A stretch of 64,000 nucleotides of DNA from Octopus vulgaris (Eukaryota), in NCBI GenBank assembly GCA_951406725.2, contig OX597836.1, positions 18,848,001 through 18,912,000 of the forward strand, written 5' to 3'. A program made the position numbers and the translations under genes. The notes under the pieces are model-generated. The model saw only the letters and a program-made list of their open reading frames with translations. It did no database searches and had not been told where the DNA came from. Shown in pieces: positions 17,041-58,946 of the stretch (position 1 is its first letter; every line of letters starts with the position of its first letter).

Positions 17041-17189
17041 TTAATTTATTATATAGAAGGAGCTTCTACAGGACTAGTACTGTTTCATTCAAGAGAAATC
17101 TTCAGGAAGCTCTGTCTGAGCTTCCTGAAGATTTCTCTTGAATGAAACAGTACTAGTCCTGTAGAAGCTCCTTCTATATAATAAATTAA
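17041..17189. repeat. Perfect fold-back palindrome: 72-bp arms, 5-nt loop
   Basis: 17041-17112 is the exact reverse complement of 17118-17189; loop tgtct. Confidence 0.95.
17118..17170 (+). ncRNA. Type I hammerhead ribozyme (mirror copy on - strand at 17060-17112)
   Basis: gagcttc CUGAAGA tttctcttgaat GAA ACAG tactagtc CUGU A gaagctc. Stem I 7 bp, short stem II (ttc/gaa), stem III ACAG/CUGU, cleavage triplet GUA ending at 17163. Confidence 0.75.
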
Positions 17190-19689
17190 TTTTACTCTGC
17201 TATGTATTGAGTACCTTACTTACTGTGGTTAACCCCGAATCAACCCGGGACCTACATATATATATATATATATATATACACGTTTGTGCGTATGAGTATA
17301 TATATATAGAGAGAGAGAGAGATAAGGAGGGAGAGGGAGAGAGAGAGGGAGAGAGAGGGAGGGAGGGAGGGAGGGAGGGAGAGGGGGAGACATGTATAGA
17401 GAGATGAGAGAGACAGGGAGAGAGAGAAACAGAGAGACAGACAGACAGACAGACAGATAGATAGATAGATAGATAGATAGATAGAGAGAGAGAGAGAGAG
17501 AGAGAGAGAGAGAGATAGGTAGGTAGATAGATAGATAGAGAGATAGAGAGAGAGGGAGATAGGTAGGTAGATAGATAGATAGATAGATAGATAGATAGAT
17601 AGATAGATAGATAGATAGATAGATAGATAGATAGATAGATAGATAGATAGATAGATAGATAGATAGATAGATAGATAGATAGATAGATAGACAGAGGCTA
17701 AGAGAGAGAATGTGTTATAATATAAAGGATGATAGACCTAGAAGCAGTAATATCACTGAAAAAGAGGGAAAATATGGACAGAAATAGTGGAGACGAAACG
17801 GAGGCAAAAAGAAATTTCCCGCTACCGCCTACAAGAATGCCGCCATTTTGATTGTATGGCAACTGTAGATTTAATAAGGAGAAATGAGAAAACATAACTT
17901 TATATTCCTTTATTTGATAGAAACAGAAGCAACAAAGAAATTGTTGCAAATGTCAAACAAAAACGTTCAGGGAAATTTCTTAAACTGTGATTTTGTAATT
18001 TTTGTATTCACGCGTTTGCACTTATAGTGTTTCATACATGTTCGTTGTTTGTGTCTGTCTGTTTGTACATGTGTGAGTGTGCGCTCACACGCATGTGTGC
18101 GCTCACACGCATGTGTGCGTACGTATGTATATGTGTATGTGCGTATGTATGTATCTGCGTATATGTATGTCTGATTAAATAAGTGTATGTATCCGTGTAT
18201 GTGTATGCGTGTTTATACGTGTATGTATATATAAGTATGTATATAAGTATATATAATGTGTTTGTGTATGCGTGTTTGTGTGTGTATGTATGTATAATAT
18301 GTATGTGTGTATATATACACATGTAGTATGTACATTTATATATATATATATATATATATATATATATATATATATATATATATATATAATACAATAGTAC
18401 GTTCCCATCTACCTAACTTTTGCGCCACCACTAAGAAGACTGGTTGAAAGGAAAGGAGAGAGAAAGCCAGAAAAGAAGGAAAATAAGGGATTGCAATGGT
18501 TACTGGTGTGGGGTGGTAGTACTGAATAGGTAGTGGGGATGGAGGGATGGTTGGATATCCTTATATATATATGTGAATAAAAGAGAGACATAGACAGACA
18601 GTCAGACAGACAGACAGATAGATAGATAGATAGATAGATAGATAGATAGATAGATAGATAGATAGATAGATAGATAGATAGATAGATAGATAGATAGATA
18701 GATAGACGTAAATGTCGAACGATGAGAATGATTGCTCAACACTGCAGTAGTGGATAAAATTTCTTTATTTGTGTATTAAGGCTACCATTAGTTTCCCGTT
18801 AAGAAAAATATCTTAATATCTTAACAATTTTTCAAGCTGACTACGTGTTTGTCTCCATTTTGGTTGGAAACACGAAAATTCTCGGAAATTCACAAAAACA
18901 GTCTCGTAAAAAAAATTAAAATGCCCTTTGATTTCTTGTTTTCTTTACGGGACGTTTTTTGTGAATTCCCGAGAATTTTCATGTTTTCATTCAAAACGGA
19001 GACGAACGCCATTTCCCTATGTATTCGGCTTGAAACATTGTTAAGATATTACGATATTTTTCTCAACACAAAGCTAATGGTCACCTTAGTACACAAATAT
19101 AAATTGCAGTAAACCAATTCAGAAAAATCACTTGTGTCAGGACATGTACTGTGAAGGCATTCTTTCTATTGGGGAGGGGAACCTGAAATTTTAGCAGAGA
19201 GGATTTGACGATTACATAGATCCTAGTGTTCAACTGTTATTTGTTTTATCGGCTCCGGAAAGAGAAAAGGCAAAAGTCGAACTCAGCGGAATTTGAACTC
19301 AAGAGCGTAAAGTGGACGAGCATGCTAACGATTTTGCCAGCCCACCATCTTAATAATGATCCTTTCTACTATAAGCAGAAGGCCTGAAATATTTTGAAGG
19401 AGGGGTATAGCCGATTACATCGACCTTATTACTCAACTGATACTTATTTCGTTGACTCCAAAAGGATAAAATGCAAAGTCGACTTAAAGACGAACGTAAA
19501 TGCAGCTAAGCATTTTGACGGGCGTGCTAAAGATTCTGTCAGCTTGATGCCTCATGCACTTACTGTAAACTTATTGAGAGTGAGTGATATGCCTGTAGGC
19601 TGACAGTTCATTATTTTCCAGTATCTGTGGATTATTGGGTCGAGAGATCCAGTATTACGCAGACATTGGGTCATTGATATGGTTAAAAT

Positions 19690-19836
19690 TTTTCCCCCTC
19701 CTCTGCTCCACCGGTCAACCTCGAGAACAAAGAGAATTGCTAACAAGCTACTGCCTTGCAATATGCCTTTTTTTTGGTAATGTATAATGTCAGGCTTGGC
19801 TTGATTTAGATGAAGAAATAGTTGGATAATATTCAC
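19690..19836 (-). mobile_element. R4/Dong-like RT fragment
   Basis: IHYQKKGILQGSSLLAILFVL, i.e. the G..QGDSLS..LF RT motif. Confidence 0.55.
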
Positions 19837-20201
19837 AGTCGGGAAACCAGCCGGAATGTGTAATCTGCATGTGTGTGTTCAGTTGTTAGTATCGCACACC
19901 TAAGCGAAATATTAGAATATATATATATATCCATATATATAGGTATATGTATGCATATAGCTATGATATATATATATATATATATATATATATATATATA
20001 TATATATATATAAACAGTGACATCGTCCTTTATAAGACTACCACGTTATGTTGGCTTATAAACATTACTAACCAGTACTTTTACTGTATTTCTCTCGCTC
20101 AGAGATTTAAAACATGTTTTTCTCGATACGAAATCGGCGATTGTGTGTTGCATAAAGAATATAAAGTATTTTCAAGTGGAGATCGCTTTCGCCACTAGCT
20201 G

Positions 20202-20259
20202 GTGATTGTTTCACACTGAGGACGTTTAACATTCAGAAATCTAGGTCTGTGAATATCAC
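20202..20259 (+). ncRNA. Minimal type I hammerhead ribozyme-like motif
   Basis: gtgat..ttcaca CUGAGGA cgtttaacattca GAAA uCUAGg UC tgtgaa.atcac. Stem I 6+5 bp, palindromic stem III, weak stem II. Confidence 0.6.
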
Positions 20260-56735: not shown

Positions 56736-57461
56736 AGACAGACAGACAGACACAGACAGACAGACAGACAGATAGATAGATAGATAGATAGATAGATAGA
56801 TAGATAGATAGATAGATAGATAGATAGATAGATAGATAGACAGACAGACAGATTACTGGATTATAAACCTTAGCCGTCTCACTGCATAACACCCCCATCT
56901 AGACATTGGCTGGTAAAACTATCCTCTTTCTGAATGGCGGTCTACCGTTCAGTACAGTCCAACGGACGAGCATCCAAAGTGTATTTTTCTGTTTACCAAA
57001 ACGTTTTCGCAATGATTTACTCCATCCGAGACTCTGATAAAATATAAAGGAACTTATGCGAAGGCAATGCACAGTTGGAATTAATCCGAAACTATGTGAT
57101 TGTTGAGTGAATTTGTAAACTCGTTAATCAACACCGCCATTTTCTTCTACCCATTTGTTCGATGTATTCATTTAACGACGCCATGTTTTGATACTTAAAA
57201 ACATTCGATTTATTTCATTGTTGTTTTCTTTTAGGTAAAATATCACGTGACAAATTTGTAGTGTATCGTTTCGTATTTTTCGTTGGACAGTTCACGGCTT
57301 TGATGGAAGTGTTGCGACAGATGCTTGGCCAAATTGACACACAAAGAAGACATAAAATGAAGATGGAGACAGTTCCTACACAAAAGTAAGCGACCAAATC
57401 GATTTTTATAAATTTTATGTTTCTGATCTATTTCATTTCACTCTGTTTGTTGGGGTACTAA

Positions 57462-57920
57462 GGCCTTACTTCCCTGGGCATGGACACATTGAACCTCCGA
57501 CGTCTGGCAGCTGACTTGGCAGACACCCATAAAATTATTAACCATTTTACAAACAATAACTCTGAGCACTTTTTCAAACTCCACCTGTCTAACACCCGTG
57601 GACATGTTTACAAAGTCAGAAAACAGCACAGTTCCCATGACTTTCGGAAACATTTTTTCACGCTGAGAGTTGCTGAAGCATGGAACAAACTGCCGGCTTC
57701 AGTTGTTAGTTGTCGGAGCACTGCATCCTTCAAAACTTCCATGCTTCCTGAGATTCGCCAACACTACACCTGATTTTCTCCCCTCCATACACACGCAAGC
57801 ATGTATCTGACTCGTACACTGTTCGCTTTCCACACATTTGTACATTATTGCATATACTTTATACGCACTTTTTGACAAGTTGTGGTGCACCTGAGCACTG
57901 TATACAATAATTTCATTATT
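57462..57920 (+). mobile_element. CR1/L2-type LINE 3' end (ORF2 C-terminus and 3' UTR)
   Basis: LGMDTLNLRRLAADL..THKII...NTRGH.YK......RKHFFTLRVAEAWNKLP..VV...S..SFK, with a short (att) tail. Confidence 0.85.
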
Positions 57921-58664
57921 AAGGACAATCCTTCACAGTACGGTACAAAAAATTTCATGGAGAACACATCGAACATCAAAACGTATCTATGCAACTTGAC
58001 AATTCCTCTGGCATACAGTTTCTCTACTGTGATTCTTGTAATCTTATGTTACTCCAAGGCTGAAGTCATTACGTAATCTTTAATCTTTTGCTTGTTTCAA
58101 TCGTTGGACTGTGTCCATGCTGGAGCGCCACCTTGAAAGATTTTTTGTCAATACAAATCGGCGTCAATATTTTTTTTTTTTTAAGCCTGCTACTTATTCT
58201 ATCGATGTCATTTGTGTCATTTACCGAACTGCTTGTTTACAGGGGCGCAAACGAACCAACACTGGTTGTCAAGCGGAGGAGGGAAGGGAGAGAAACGGAA
58301 CACAAATACGCGTGCACACACACACACACACACACACACACACACACACATATATATATATATATATATATATATATATATATATATATATATATATATA
58401 TATATATATATATATATATATATATACATATATATATATTATATGATTAAGGTTCAGCTAAAAAAATTTACTTTACCACACACTGAACTTTTAGAAATAG
58501 CAGCCAAAGAATTTAGCTATTTCCTCTACTACAAGAAGAGTCTCCCAGACAATGTATACTCAAAAACAATTGACTATATATATATATATATATATATATA
58601 TATATATATATAGTAGTAACAGAAAAGAGGAATTTCGATTGTCCCCACGTGGTGACTTGTAATG

Positions 58665-58946
58665 TATATAAGAAATTAAAAAAGGAAAATACGCACACTT
58701 ACATGGCTTTAATATAATTTTTAATATATCGACCGGTGTCGCTATCGCTATTCATGATATAATGTTTAATTTATATGAATATATATCACACACAACATGG
58801 ACCAAATTTCTTCTTAAGAAAAAATATATATTCATATAAATTAAACATTATATCATGAATAGCGATAGCGAAACCGGTCGATATATTAAAAATTATATTA
58901 AAACCATGTAAGTGTGCGTATTTTCCTTTTTTTAATTTCTTATATA
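58665..58946. repeat. Fold-back inverted repeat: ~122-bp arms, 37-nt spacer, near (TA)n
   Basis: 58665-58786 versus 58824-58946: two substitutions and one indel. Confidence 0.92.
58849..58885 (+). ncRNA. Minimal hammerhead ribozyme variant with an A3-U8 core pair
   Basis: tatatc AUGAAUA gc gata gc GAAA ccgg UC gatata. Stem I 6 bp, stem II 2 bp, palindromic stem III ACCGGU, GUC triplet. Confidence 0.6.

What the first reader, a model, noticed from the sequence alone, without database searches (positions are those of the whole stretch)
17060..58885. Hammerhead cores in one locus co-vary at the 3-8 tertiary pair (C-G, G-C, A-U, possibly U-A)
Seen: canonical CUGAnGA cores at 17125 (+), 20216 (+) and 26261-26325 (-); GUGAACA at 21070-21114 (-); AUGAAUA at 58855 (+); and a decayed UUGAAAA at 42208-42245 (-). 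The G-C and A-U variants sit between a correct stem I, stem II, GAAA and a palindromic stem III. Known: positions 3 and 8 form a Watson-Crick pair in the active fold, and compensatory swaps can retain activity. Inference: double compensatory changes imply selection for catalysis in different retroelement families. Such variants are missed by CUGAnGA-only searches, so this genome may hold a large uncatalogued set of non-canonical hammerheads.
Basis: partly seen in the sequence, partly recalled or inferred. Interest (0 to 1): 0.85.

Follow-up and report, generated by a model that had tools for sequence, protein, structure and literature searches.

The report
Four core pairs in retroelement hammerheads
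Separate high-copy jumping-gene families in this animal genome carry the same predicted self-cutting RNA with one core base pair swapped to each of its four possible forms, two of which I did not find reported from nature; the pair is likely kept because the RNA must fold and cut, but cutting is untested.

Summary
Confirmed and extended. The sites are type I hammerhead motifs in repeats; three variant families are tied to Penelope-like (RT + GIY-YIG) ORFs. With positions 3 and 8 left free, genome-wide family counts are A3-U8 97 of 100 listed (258 exact copies), G3-C8 95 of 100 (1,183) and U3-A8 89 of 100 (1,664). A second U3-A8 family gives 92 of 100 (1,459). In 1.53 Mb sampled largely without regard to core state, 19 of 19 families had a Watson-Crick 3-8 pair; shuffles gave 0.4 hits. 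An apparently older U3·G8 wobble subfamily of the 42208 family also spread, a likely stepping stone between C-G and U-A. Against strict need: five G3·G8 insertions on one chromosome, and a published mutational scan in which only the G-C swap rescued activity. The 20216 and 42208 copies are decayed. U3-A8 is already published from nature and the G-C swap from the lab; natural A3-U8 and G3-C8 families were not found in my searches, though three key papers were unavailable. This scan noted both variants before on other pieces of this genome. Catalysis is untested. New variant of a known kind.

The parts
58849..58885 (+). Minimal type I hammerhead, A3-U8 core (A3 58855, U8 58860), 2-bp stem II, self-complementary stem III, predicted cut after C17 (58879); intact
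58725..58761 (-). Mirror copy of the A3-U8 hammerhead in the left arm of the fold-back; A14 changed to C, predicted dead
58660..58945 (.). 5'-truncated inverted (fold-back) pLTR remnant of a Penelope-like element, ending in (TA)n; approximate ends
   Evidence: longer copies carry RT thumb + CX4CxxC linker + GIY-YIG upstream
21070..21114 (-). Type I hammerhead, G3-C8 core (G3 21110, C8 21105), extra G after A9, 5-bp stem II, U17; stem I shortened by a 12-nt deletion in this copy
20960..21125 (-). Short 3' pLTR copy of the G3-C8 Penelope-like family; approximate ends
   Evidence: ORF link
42208..42245 (-). Decayed copy of a U3-A8 minimal hammerhead family (U3 42242, A8 42237); GAAA and stem I damaged in this copy
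42125..42360 (.). Fold-back insertion of the U3-A8 family between (TA)n tracts; no ORF partner found; approximate ends
17118..17170 (+). Canonical C3-G8 type I hammerhead (C3 17125), U·U at 10.1-11.1, A17
17060..17112 (-). Identical mirror copy of the 17125 hammerhead (C3 17105), other arm of a perfect fold-back
26261..26325 (-). Canonical C3-G8 type I hammerhead with long stem II and hairpin stem III
20210..20253 (+). Canonical core with stem I but no stem II; decayed or doubtful

Best explanation
These are type I hammerhead motifs in the terminal repeats of Penelope-like retrotransposon families, each family fixed for a different Watson-Crick 3-8 pair, likely because master elements are selected to keep a foldable, weakly self-cleaving ribozyme whose 3-8 geometry matters more than its letters. 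Shown: family-wide fixation of C-G, U-A, A-U and G-C; position 3' of RT + GIY-YIG ORFs for the A-U, G-C and second U-A families; compensatory stem I changes between A-U subfamilies. Predicted: two motifs pair through the self-complementary stem III and cut after position 17, trimming the element's transcript, possibly with help from the element's protein. Inferred: swaps pass through tolerated intermediates (C-G to U·G to U-A in the 42208 family), and U17 in the G3 family weakens a G3-C17 trap.
For: Family counts with 3, 7 and 8 free: A-U 97 of 100 listed, 258 exact; G-C 95 of 100, 1,183 and 98 of 100, 247; U-A 89 of 100, 1,664. For one architecture (short stem II, strong 4-nt stem III), three searches covering all 16 cells gave 2,450 matches against 26 reversed-pattern controls: U-A 92 of 100 listed, A-U 96 of 100, and only 21 with A/C3 plus G8, 3 of them C-G. 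Survey of 1.53 Mb: 36 of 39 hits and 19 of 19 families Watson-Crick (13 C-G, 3 U-A, 2 A-U, 1 G-C); permutation mean 9.6, 0 of 200,000 reached 19; shuffles 0.4 hits. A-U subfamilies about 65-77% identical over the motif and flanks keep A3-U8 while position 7, loop II and stem I pairs change. C3·A8 copies (71 of 1,664) share no diagnostic site and scatter over the tree, so they look like post-insertion mutations, whereas U·G wobble copies form a subfamily with 16 further diagnostic columns. The predicted dimer minimum-energy fold of the 58855 motif is the dimeric hammerhead. No change at 3 or 8 reached 5% in contigs of four runs with four organism labels. Papers: natural U3-A8 (PMC3088659, PMC4209133); the G-C swap partly rescues a Penelope hammerhead (PMC11167929).
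Against: No cleavage or RNA-end data. In a full double-mutant scan of one hammerhead only the G-C swap rescued; A-U and U-A did not (PMC9901934, passage). Five of 13 ORF-bearing G3-family copies, all on C16 with different flanks, are G3·G8. About half of the second U-A family has a U·U or bulge at the base of stem I. G3·U17 is predicted to extend stem I (probability 0.67), a possible trap. The 42208 family's stem I is only 3 bp (probability 0.23), and its predicted dimer is not the hammerhead fold. Hammerhead mutants did not impair insertion in vitro (PMC11167929). Independent swap events are few and unrooted; families are not independent draws, so the permutation value overstates certainty.
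Confidence: 0.72

Rival explanations
1. The fold, including the 3-8 pair, is kept as a binding or folding platform for the element's protein or for dimerising the RNA; the A-U and G-C versions cut little or not at all.
For: Hammerhead catalytic mutants did not affect insertion in vitro, and cleavage needed the protein (PMC11167929). Low activity even as dimers (PMC4209133). Only the G-C swap rescued in PMC9901934. G3·G8 copies were inserted at least five times.
Against: The 3-8 pair belongs to the active conformation (PMC3884650). U4, G5, A6, A9, G12-A14, U16.1 and non-G at 17 are all kept in the variant families, though my patterns required most of these.
Confidence: 0.17
2. Relaxed selection: a few master elements happened to carry paired double changes, and copy number only multiplies these few events.
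For: One G-C lineage and one A-U lineage only. Non-Watson-Crick sublineages exist: G·G, U·G.
Against: 19 of 19 families paired. At least five distinct U-A families. A-U held across subfamilies whose flanks have diverged by a quarter to a third. Apart from the small G·G cluster, only wobble or Watson-Crick states amplified.
Confidence: 0.08
3. A3 was selected as a start codon (A3-U4-G5 reads AUG) and U8 followed.
For: The core begins with AUG, with a purine three bases upstream, in the A-U subfamilies.
Against: The frame stops after 18 codons in 60 of 83 copies and is not conserved in other subfamilies. No full-length 5' end was available to test splicing.
Confidence: 0.03

Closest known systems
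Minimal and short-helix-III type I hammerheads of metazoan Penelope-like elements (Cervera and De la Pena 2014, PMC4209133; read: main text parts 1-2 of 4, supplement file 2 part 2 of 3 plus passages; file 1 not searchable)
   Same: Type I order, palindromic or absent helix III, extra base after A9, G10.1-C11.1, location in pLTRs; U3-A8 variant in Schistosoma mansoni Cercyon elements (about 1,300 hits); one listed Saccoglossus example has U3·G8.
   Different: No A3-U8 or G3-C8 example in the parts I saw; no cephalopod; the A-U family has only a 2-bp stem II.
Natural U3-A8 hammerheads (Perreault et al. 2011, PMC3088659; passages)
   Same: First report of natural covariation at 3-8.
   Different: The passage names only U3-A8.
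Engineered C3G/G8C swaps: Poseidon element of Anolis (Frangieh et al. 2024, PMC11167929; passages), pairwise mutant scan (Roberts et al. 2023, PMC9901934; passages), G17 study (PMC3884650; passages)
   Same: G3-C8 partly restores cleavage, including in a Penelope hammerhead; the partner at 17 affects it.
   Different: Lab mutants, not natural families; the scan found no rescue by A-U or U-A in its construct.
Neptune and Nematis clades of Penelope-like elements (Craig et al. 2021, PMC8557442; passages)
   Same: C-terminal GIY-YIG, CX2-5CxxC linker, inverted 5'-truncated copies, (TA)n targets.
   Different: Clade not assigned here by a reference tree; that paper's hammerhead search used CUGANGA-based descriptors.
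Metazoan non-LTR retrozymes (bioRxiv 10.64898/2026.07.22.740005, part 1 of 5; PMC7229834, search listing only)
   Same: Tandem short units each with a type I hammerhead occur in the G-C family (L094).
   Different: Most copies are dispersed pLTR remnants of an ORF-bearing element; circular RNA not tested.

Membership tests
Hammerhead ribozyme, type I | Core U4 G5 A6, A9, G12 A13 A14, A15.1-U16.1, non-G at 17 | tested here: met
   All variant families; most of these positions were required by the patterns
Hammerhead ribozyme, type I | Stems I and II around the core, open end in stem I | tested here: met
   A-U 5-6 bp and 2 bp; G-C 7 bp and 5 bp; 42208 family 3 bp and 5 bp (weak); stem I covaries between A-U subfamilies
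Hammerhead ribozyme, type I | Watson-Crick pair possible between 3 and 8 | tested here: met
   89-98 of 100 listed copies per family; 19 of 19 families
Hammerhead ribozyme, canonical consensus | C at 3 and G at 8 | tested here: not met
   A-U, G-C and U-A families; met only at 17125, 20216 and 26320
Hammerhead ribozyme, type I | Rfam hammerhead model match | tested here: inconclusive
   No hammerhead family among the 150 listed of 266 matches at E up to 10; 116 lower rows not shown
Hammerhead ribozyme, type I | Site-specific self-cleavage | not testable with these tools
   No assay; only contigs, no raw reads
PLE dimer-type hammerhead | Self-complementary short helix III allowing a dimer | tested here: met
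   Palindromic in all variant families; the dimer fold is the predicted minimum for the A-U and second U-A motifs, not for the G-C or 42208 motifs
Penelope-like element, EN+ | RT with C-terminal GIY-YIG upstream of the hammerhead-bearing pLTR | tested here: met
   A-U family; second U-A family; G-C family, 13 of 30 endonuclease loci
Penelope-like element, EN+ | Same link for the 42208 U-A family and the window's C-G motifs | tested here: inconclusive
   No ORF found within the fetched flanks
Penelope-like element, EN+ | Inverted 5'-truncated copies and (TA)n targets | tested here: met
Neptune or Nematis clade | CX2-5CxxC linker before GIY-YIG | tested here: met
   CX4CxxC in the A-U and second U-A ORFs, CX3CxxC in the G-C ORF
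Neptune or Nematis clade | Placement in a reference RT tree | not tested
   No reference elements in hand; the tree has only this genome's rows and is the quick version
Non-LTR retrozyme | Tandem non-coding units giving circular RNA | tested here: inconclusive
   One array of eight units of about 170 nt (L094); circular RNA not testable

The most novel reading that the evidence does not exclude
All four Watson-Crick versions of the hammerhead 3-8 pair are natural, active ribozymes in one animal genome. They are reached through wobble intermediates that are themselves mobile (C-G to U·G to U-A caught in one family) and tuned by position 17 (U17 with G3), so non-canonical cores are a large share of Penelope hammerheads and some elements said to lack a hammerhead were missed by CUGAnGA searches.
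Probability: 0.45. Interest if true: 0.68.

Novelty: new variant of a known kind. Interest (0 to 1): 0.52.

Why it matters
The hammerhead core is treated as nearly invariant, and genome searches fix C3 and G8, at most adding U3-A8. Thousands of copies of A3-U8 and G3-C8 families would give evolutionary proof of the tertiary pair in all four orientations, plus a natural series (C-G, U·G, U-A, A-U, G-C and broken G·G) for testing the open question of whether Penelope elements need their ribozyme to cut. Descriptors should free positions 3 and 8.

Tried and rejected
Rfam scan: listed matches were microsatellite and hairpin look-alikes. Start-codon explanation for A3: rejected. C3·A8 as an amplified intermediate: rejected, no shared sites. 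A general rule that position 17 avoids pairing with position 3: rejected as general, since two U3-A8 families have A17; it holds only for the single G3 family. A canonical sister of the short-stem A-U architecture: only 3 C-G matches genome-wide. Convergent G-C pairs 2.7 kb apart proved to be segmental inverted duplications. No ORF partner for the 42208 or 17125 families. Expression: no RNA holder on record was listed and only contigs were available, so nothing is concluded on transcription or RNA ends. The careful protein tree did not finish; the quick tree was used, and L253's label there belongs to a neighbouring unrelated insertion. Papers not held: Przybilski and Hammann 2007, Nelson and Uhlenbeck 2008 (two papers), Lunse et al. 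2017. They or their supplements may list natural A3-U8 or G3-C8 cases or give activities.
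Full report
Setting. The window is G000:C23:18848001-18912000 of a 2.8-Gb animal genome in 227 contigs, AT-rich and full of microsatellites. It looks octopus-like by my recall of its repeats and by earlier scan notes; no call of mine established the species.

1. Observation. All six cores lie where stated. A descriptor with positions 3 and 8 free found four sites in the window; three have a Watson-Crick stem I: 58855+ (A3-U8), 21110- (G3-C8) and 26320- (C3-G8). 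Sixty local dinucleotide shuffles gave 0.15 such hits per window. 17125 is canonical, has a U·U at 10.1-11.1 and belongs to a young family. 20216 cannot form stem II and had no relative among the fetched loci. The 21110 copy has lost 12 nt that shorten stem I from 7 to 4 bp. The 42208 copy is damaged.

2. Families. Patterns with positions 3, 7 and 8 free, searched in the whole genome, gave these counts; only the first 100 matches are listed, and I tallied them by eye. 58855 family: 258 exact copies, 97 of 100 A-U. 21110 family: 1,183, 95 of 100 G-C; a loop variant 247, 98 of 100 G-C. 42208 family: 1,664, with 89 U-A, 9 C·A, 1 G·A and 1 U·G. Reversed-pattern controls were 0. A generic pattern for the short-stem-II architecture was split into three searches that cover all 16 states. 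G/U at 3: 1,459 matches (control 18), 92 U-A, 5 U·G, 2 G·A, 1 U·U. A/C at 3 with non-G at 8: 970 (control 8), 96 A-U. A/C at 3 with G8: 21 in all, 18 A·G and 3 C-G. This architecture is thus almost wholly non-canonical. Summed without overlap, the variant families give about 5,500 exact-motif matches, a lower bound.

3. Survey not chosen by core state. In 1.53 Mb (96 ten-kb stretches, two of them beside the window, plus flanks of search loci with the query match removed) a strict descriptor gave 39 distinct hits in 19 clusters, all 19 with a Watson-Crick majority: 13 C-G, 3 U-A, 2 A-U (one singleton may be chance) and 1 G-C. The three unpaired hits were G-C family copies. Shuffles gave 0.4 hits per replicate; permuting position 8 gave a mean of 9.6 paired and never 19 in 200,000 tries. 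Caveats: clusters are related, two C-G singletons are one family, flanks of the endonuclease loci enrich G-C copies, and the descriptor misses the 3-bp-stem 42208 family. A looser descriptor on 890 kb of evenly spaced stretches gave 15 hits (10 C-G, 2 G-C, 1 U-A, 2 U·G) against 4.1 in shuffles.

4. What carries them. The A-U motif lies about 340-390 nt downstream of an ORF with RT, thumb, CX4CxxC linker and GIY-YIG. The second U-A family is tied to a related ORF, 59% identical over 265 residues, forming its own group in a quick tree. The G-C motif lies 0.85-1.4 kb downstream of a different RT + CX3CxxC + GIY-YIG ORF in 13 of 30 loci; its RT core is 25% identical to the A-U RT. Fold-back, 5'-truncated insertions in (TA)n match the Penelope arrangement described in PMC8557442 (passages). 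No ORF was found for the 42208 family.

5. Selection or decay. A-U subfamilies about 65-77% identical to the main group keep A3-U8 while position 7, loop II and stem I pairs change in a compensatory way; the other core positions were required by the pattern and are not evidence. In the 42208 family, C3 occurs in 73 of 1,664 copies (71 C·A). Thirty of them share no other diagnostic site against 25 U3 copies and need 12 changes on the tree, so they look like recurrent mutations after insertion. By contrast, a loop variant of this family gave 77 matches: 35 U·G, 32 U-A, 5 C-G and 5 other. Sixteen U·G copies differ from 17 main-family copies at 18 columns, 16 beyond the two used to define them; nine C-G copies carry the same alleles, and three of four U-A copies with that loop are main-family mutants. 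The U·G group shows more CpG decay (18 of 35 against 7 of 32, p = 0.022), which suggests it is older. A wobble-paired lineage therefore spread and is a likely step from C-G to U-A; whether its C-G copies reflect a C-G master or back-mutation is open. A small U·G branch also exists in the second U-A family. Against strict need, 5 of 13 ORF-bearing G3 copies, all on C16 with different ends, are G3·G8; the tree neither shows nor excludes one origin. Contigs of four runs under four organism labels showed no change reaching 5% at 3 or 8 for either the A-U or G-C motif; these may be close relatives.

6. Mechanism. Predicted folding gives the dimeric hammerhead as the minimum-energy dimer for the A-U and second U-A motifs. 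The G-C motif forms stems I and II strongly but tends to add a G3·U17 wobble (0.67). The 42208 family's stem I is weak. All 44 sampled G3 copies have U17; C17 would pair fully with G3, and PMC3884650 mentions, as data not shown, that G3-C8 is more active with G17 than with C17. This is one family, and two U3 families have A17, so it is no general rule. I commit to weak, dimer- or protein-assisted self-cleavage after position 17 under selection in master elements (0.72). Fixation and element context are shown; the fold is predicted; cleavage and its role are inferred.

7. Known work. Natural U3-A8 is reported in PMC3088659 (passage) and in Schistosoma Penelope elements in PMC4209133 (parts 1-2 of 4), whose supplementary alignment shows C-G, U-A and one U·G but no A-U or G-C in the parts I saw. 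The G-C swap partly rescues a Penelope hammerhead, cleavage needs the protein, and insertion in vitro does not need cleavage (PMC11167929, passages). In PMC9901934 only the G-C swap rescued, which weighs against A-U activity, though natural U-A forms show that context matters. Searches found no natural A3-U8 or G3-C8 family; notation varies, figures are not searchable, and Lunse 2017, Przybilski 2007 and Nelson 2008 were not held. Earlier notes of this scan report the G-C family and the A-U motif on other pieces of this genome; I reached both before reading them and count them as no support.

8. Verdict. A real feature and a new variant of a known kind. The value lies in all four pairs, a wobble intermediate and a broken sublineage being present in one genome, which makes the role of Penelope hammerheads directly testable. 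Interest 0.52.

Noticed in passing
G000:C2:206158693-206186197: Thirteen G3-C8 motifs on one strand, most 2.18 kb apart: a tandem array that could supply dimers.
   Followed up: no
L094:4403-5650 (G000:C26): Eight G3-family units of about 170 nt separated by (TA)n, retrozyme-like; one has U at 3.
   Followed up: partly
L330-L359: 19 of the 30 best endonuclease-bearing copies of the G-C family lie on C16 (the query was from C16), including all five G3·G8 copies.
   Followed up: partly
L037, L049, L052, L053, L330-L359, about 20 nt upstream of the G3-C8 stem I: A branch-point, pyrimidine tract and AG like an intron end; most short copies begin right there.
   Followed up: partly
window 33904-34473 (+): GIY-YIG-like fragment with a CxCX5C linker, the motif PMC8557442 gives for the Hydra clade; a relative in L278 lies 405 nt upstream of a long-stem-II C3-G8 hammerhead.
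   Followed up: partly
window 5540-6118 (-): Another Penelope-like thumb and linker fragment, 39% identical to the A-U family ORF; no hammerhead found downstream.
   Followed up: partly
L229, L354; L235, L121; L023: Three further U3-A8 families, two with A at position 17.
   Followed up: no
window 20013-20070 and 20364-20421: A 58-nt direct repeat (91%) about 350 nt apart flanks the doubtful 20216 core.
   Followed up: no
window 62049-62923, 29997-31075, 53187-53564: Long inverted repeats (345, 242 and 178 nt arms), probably more fold-back insertions; not examined.
   Followed up: no
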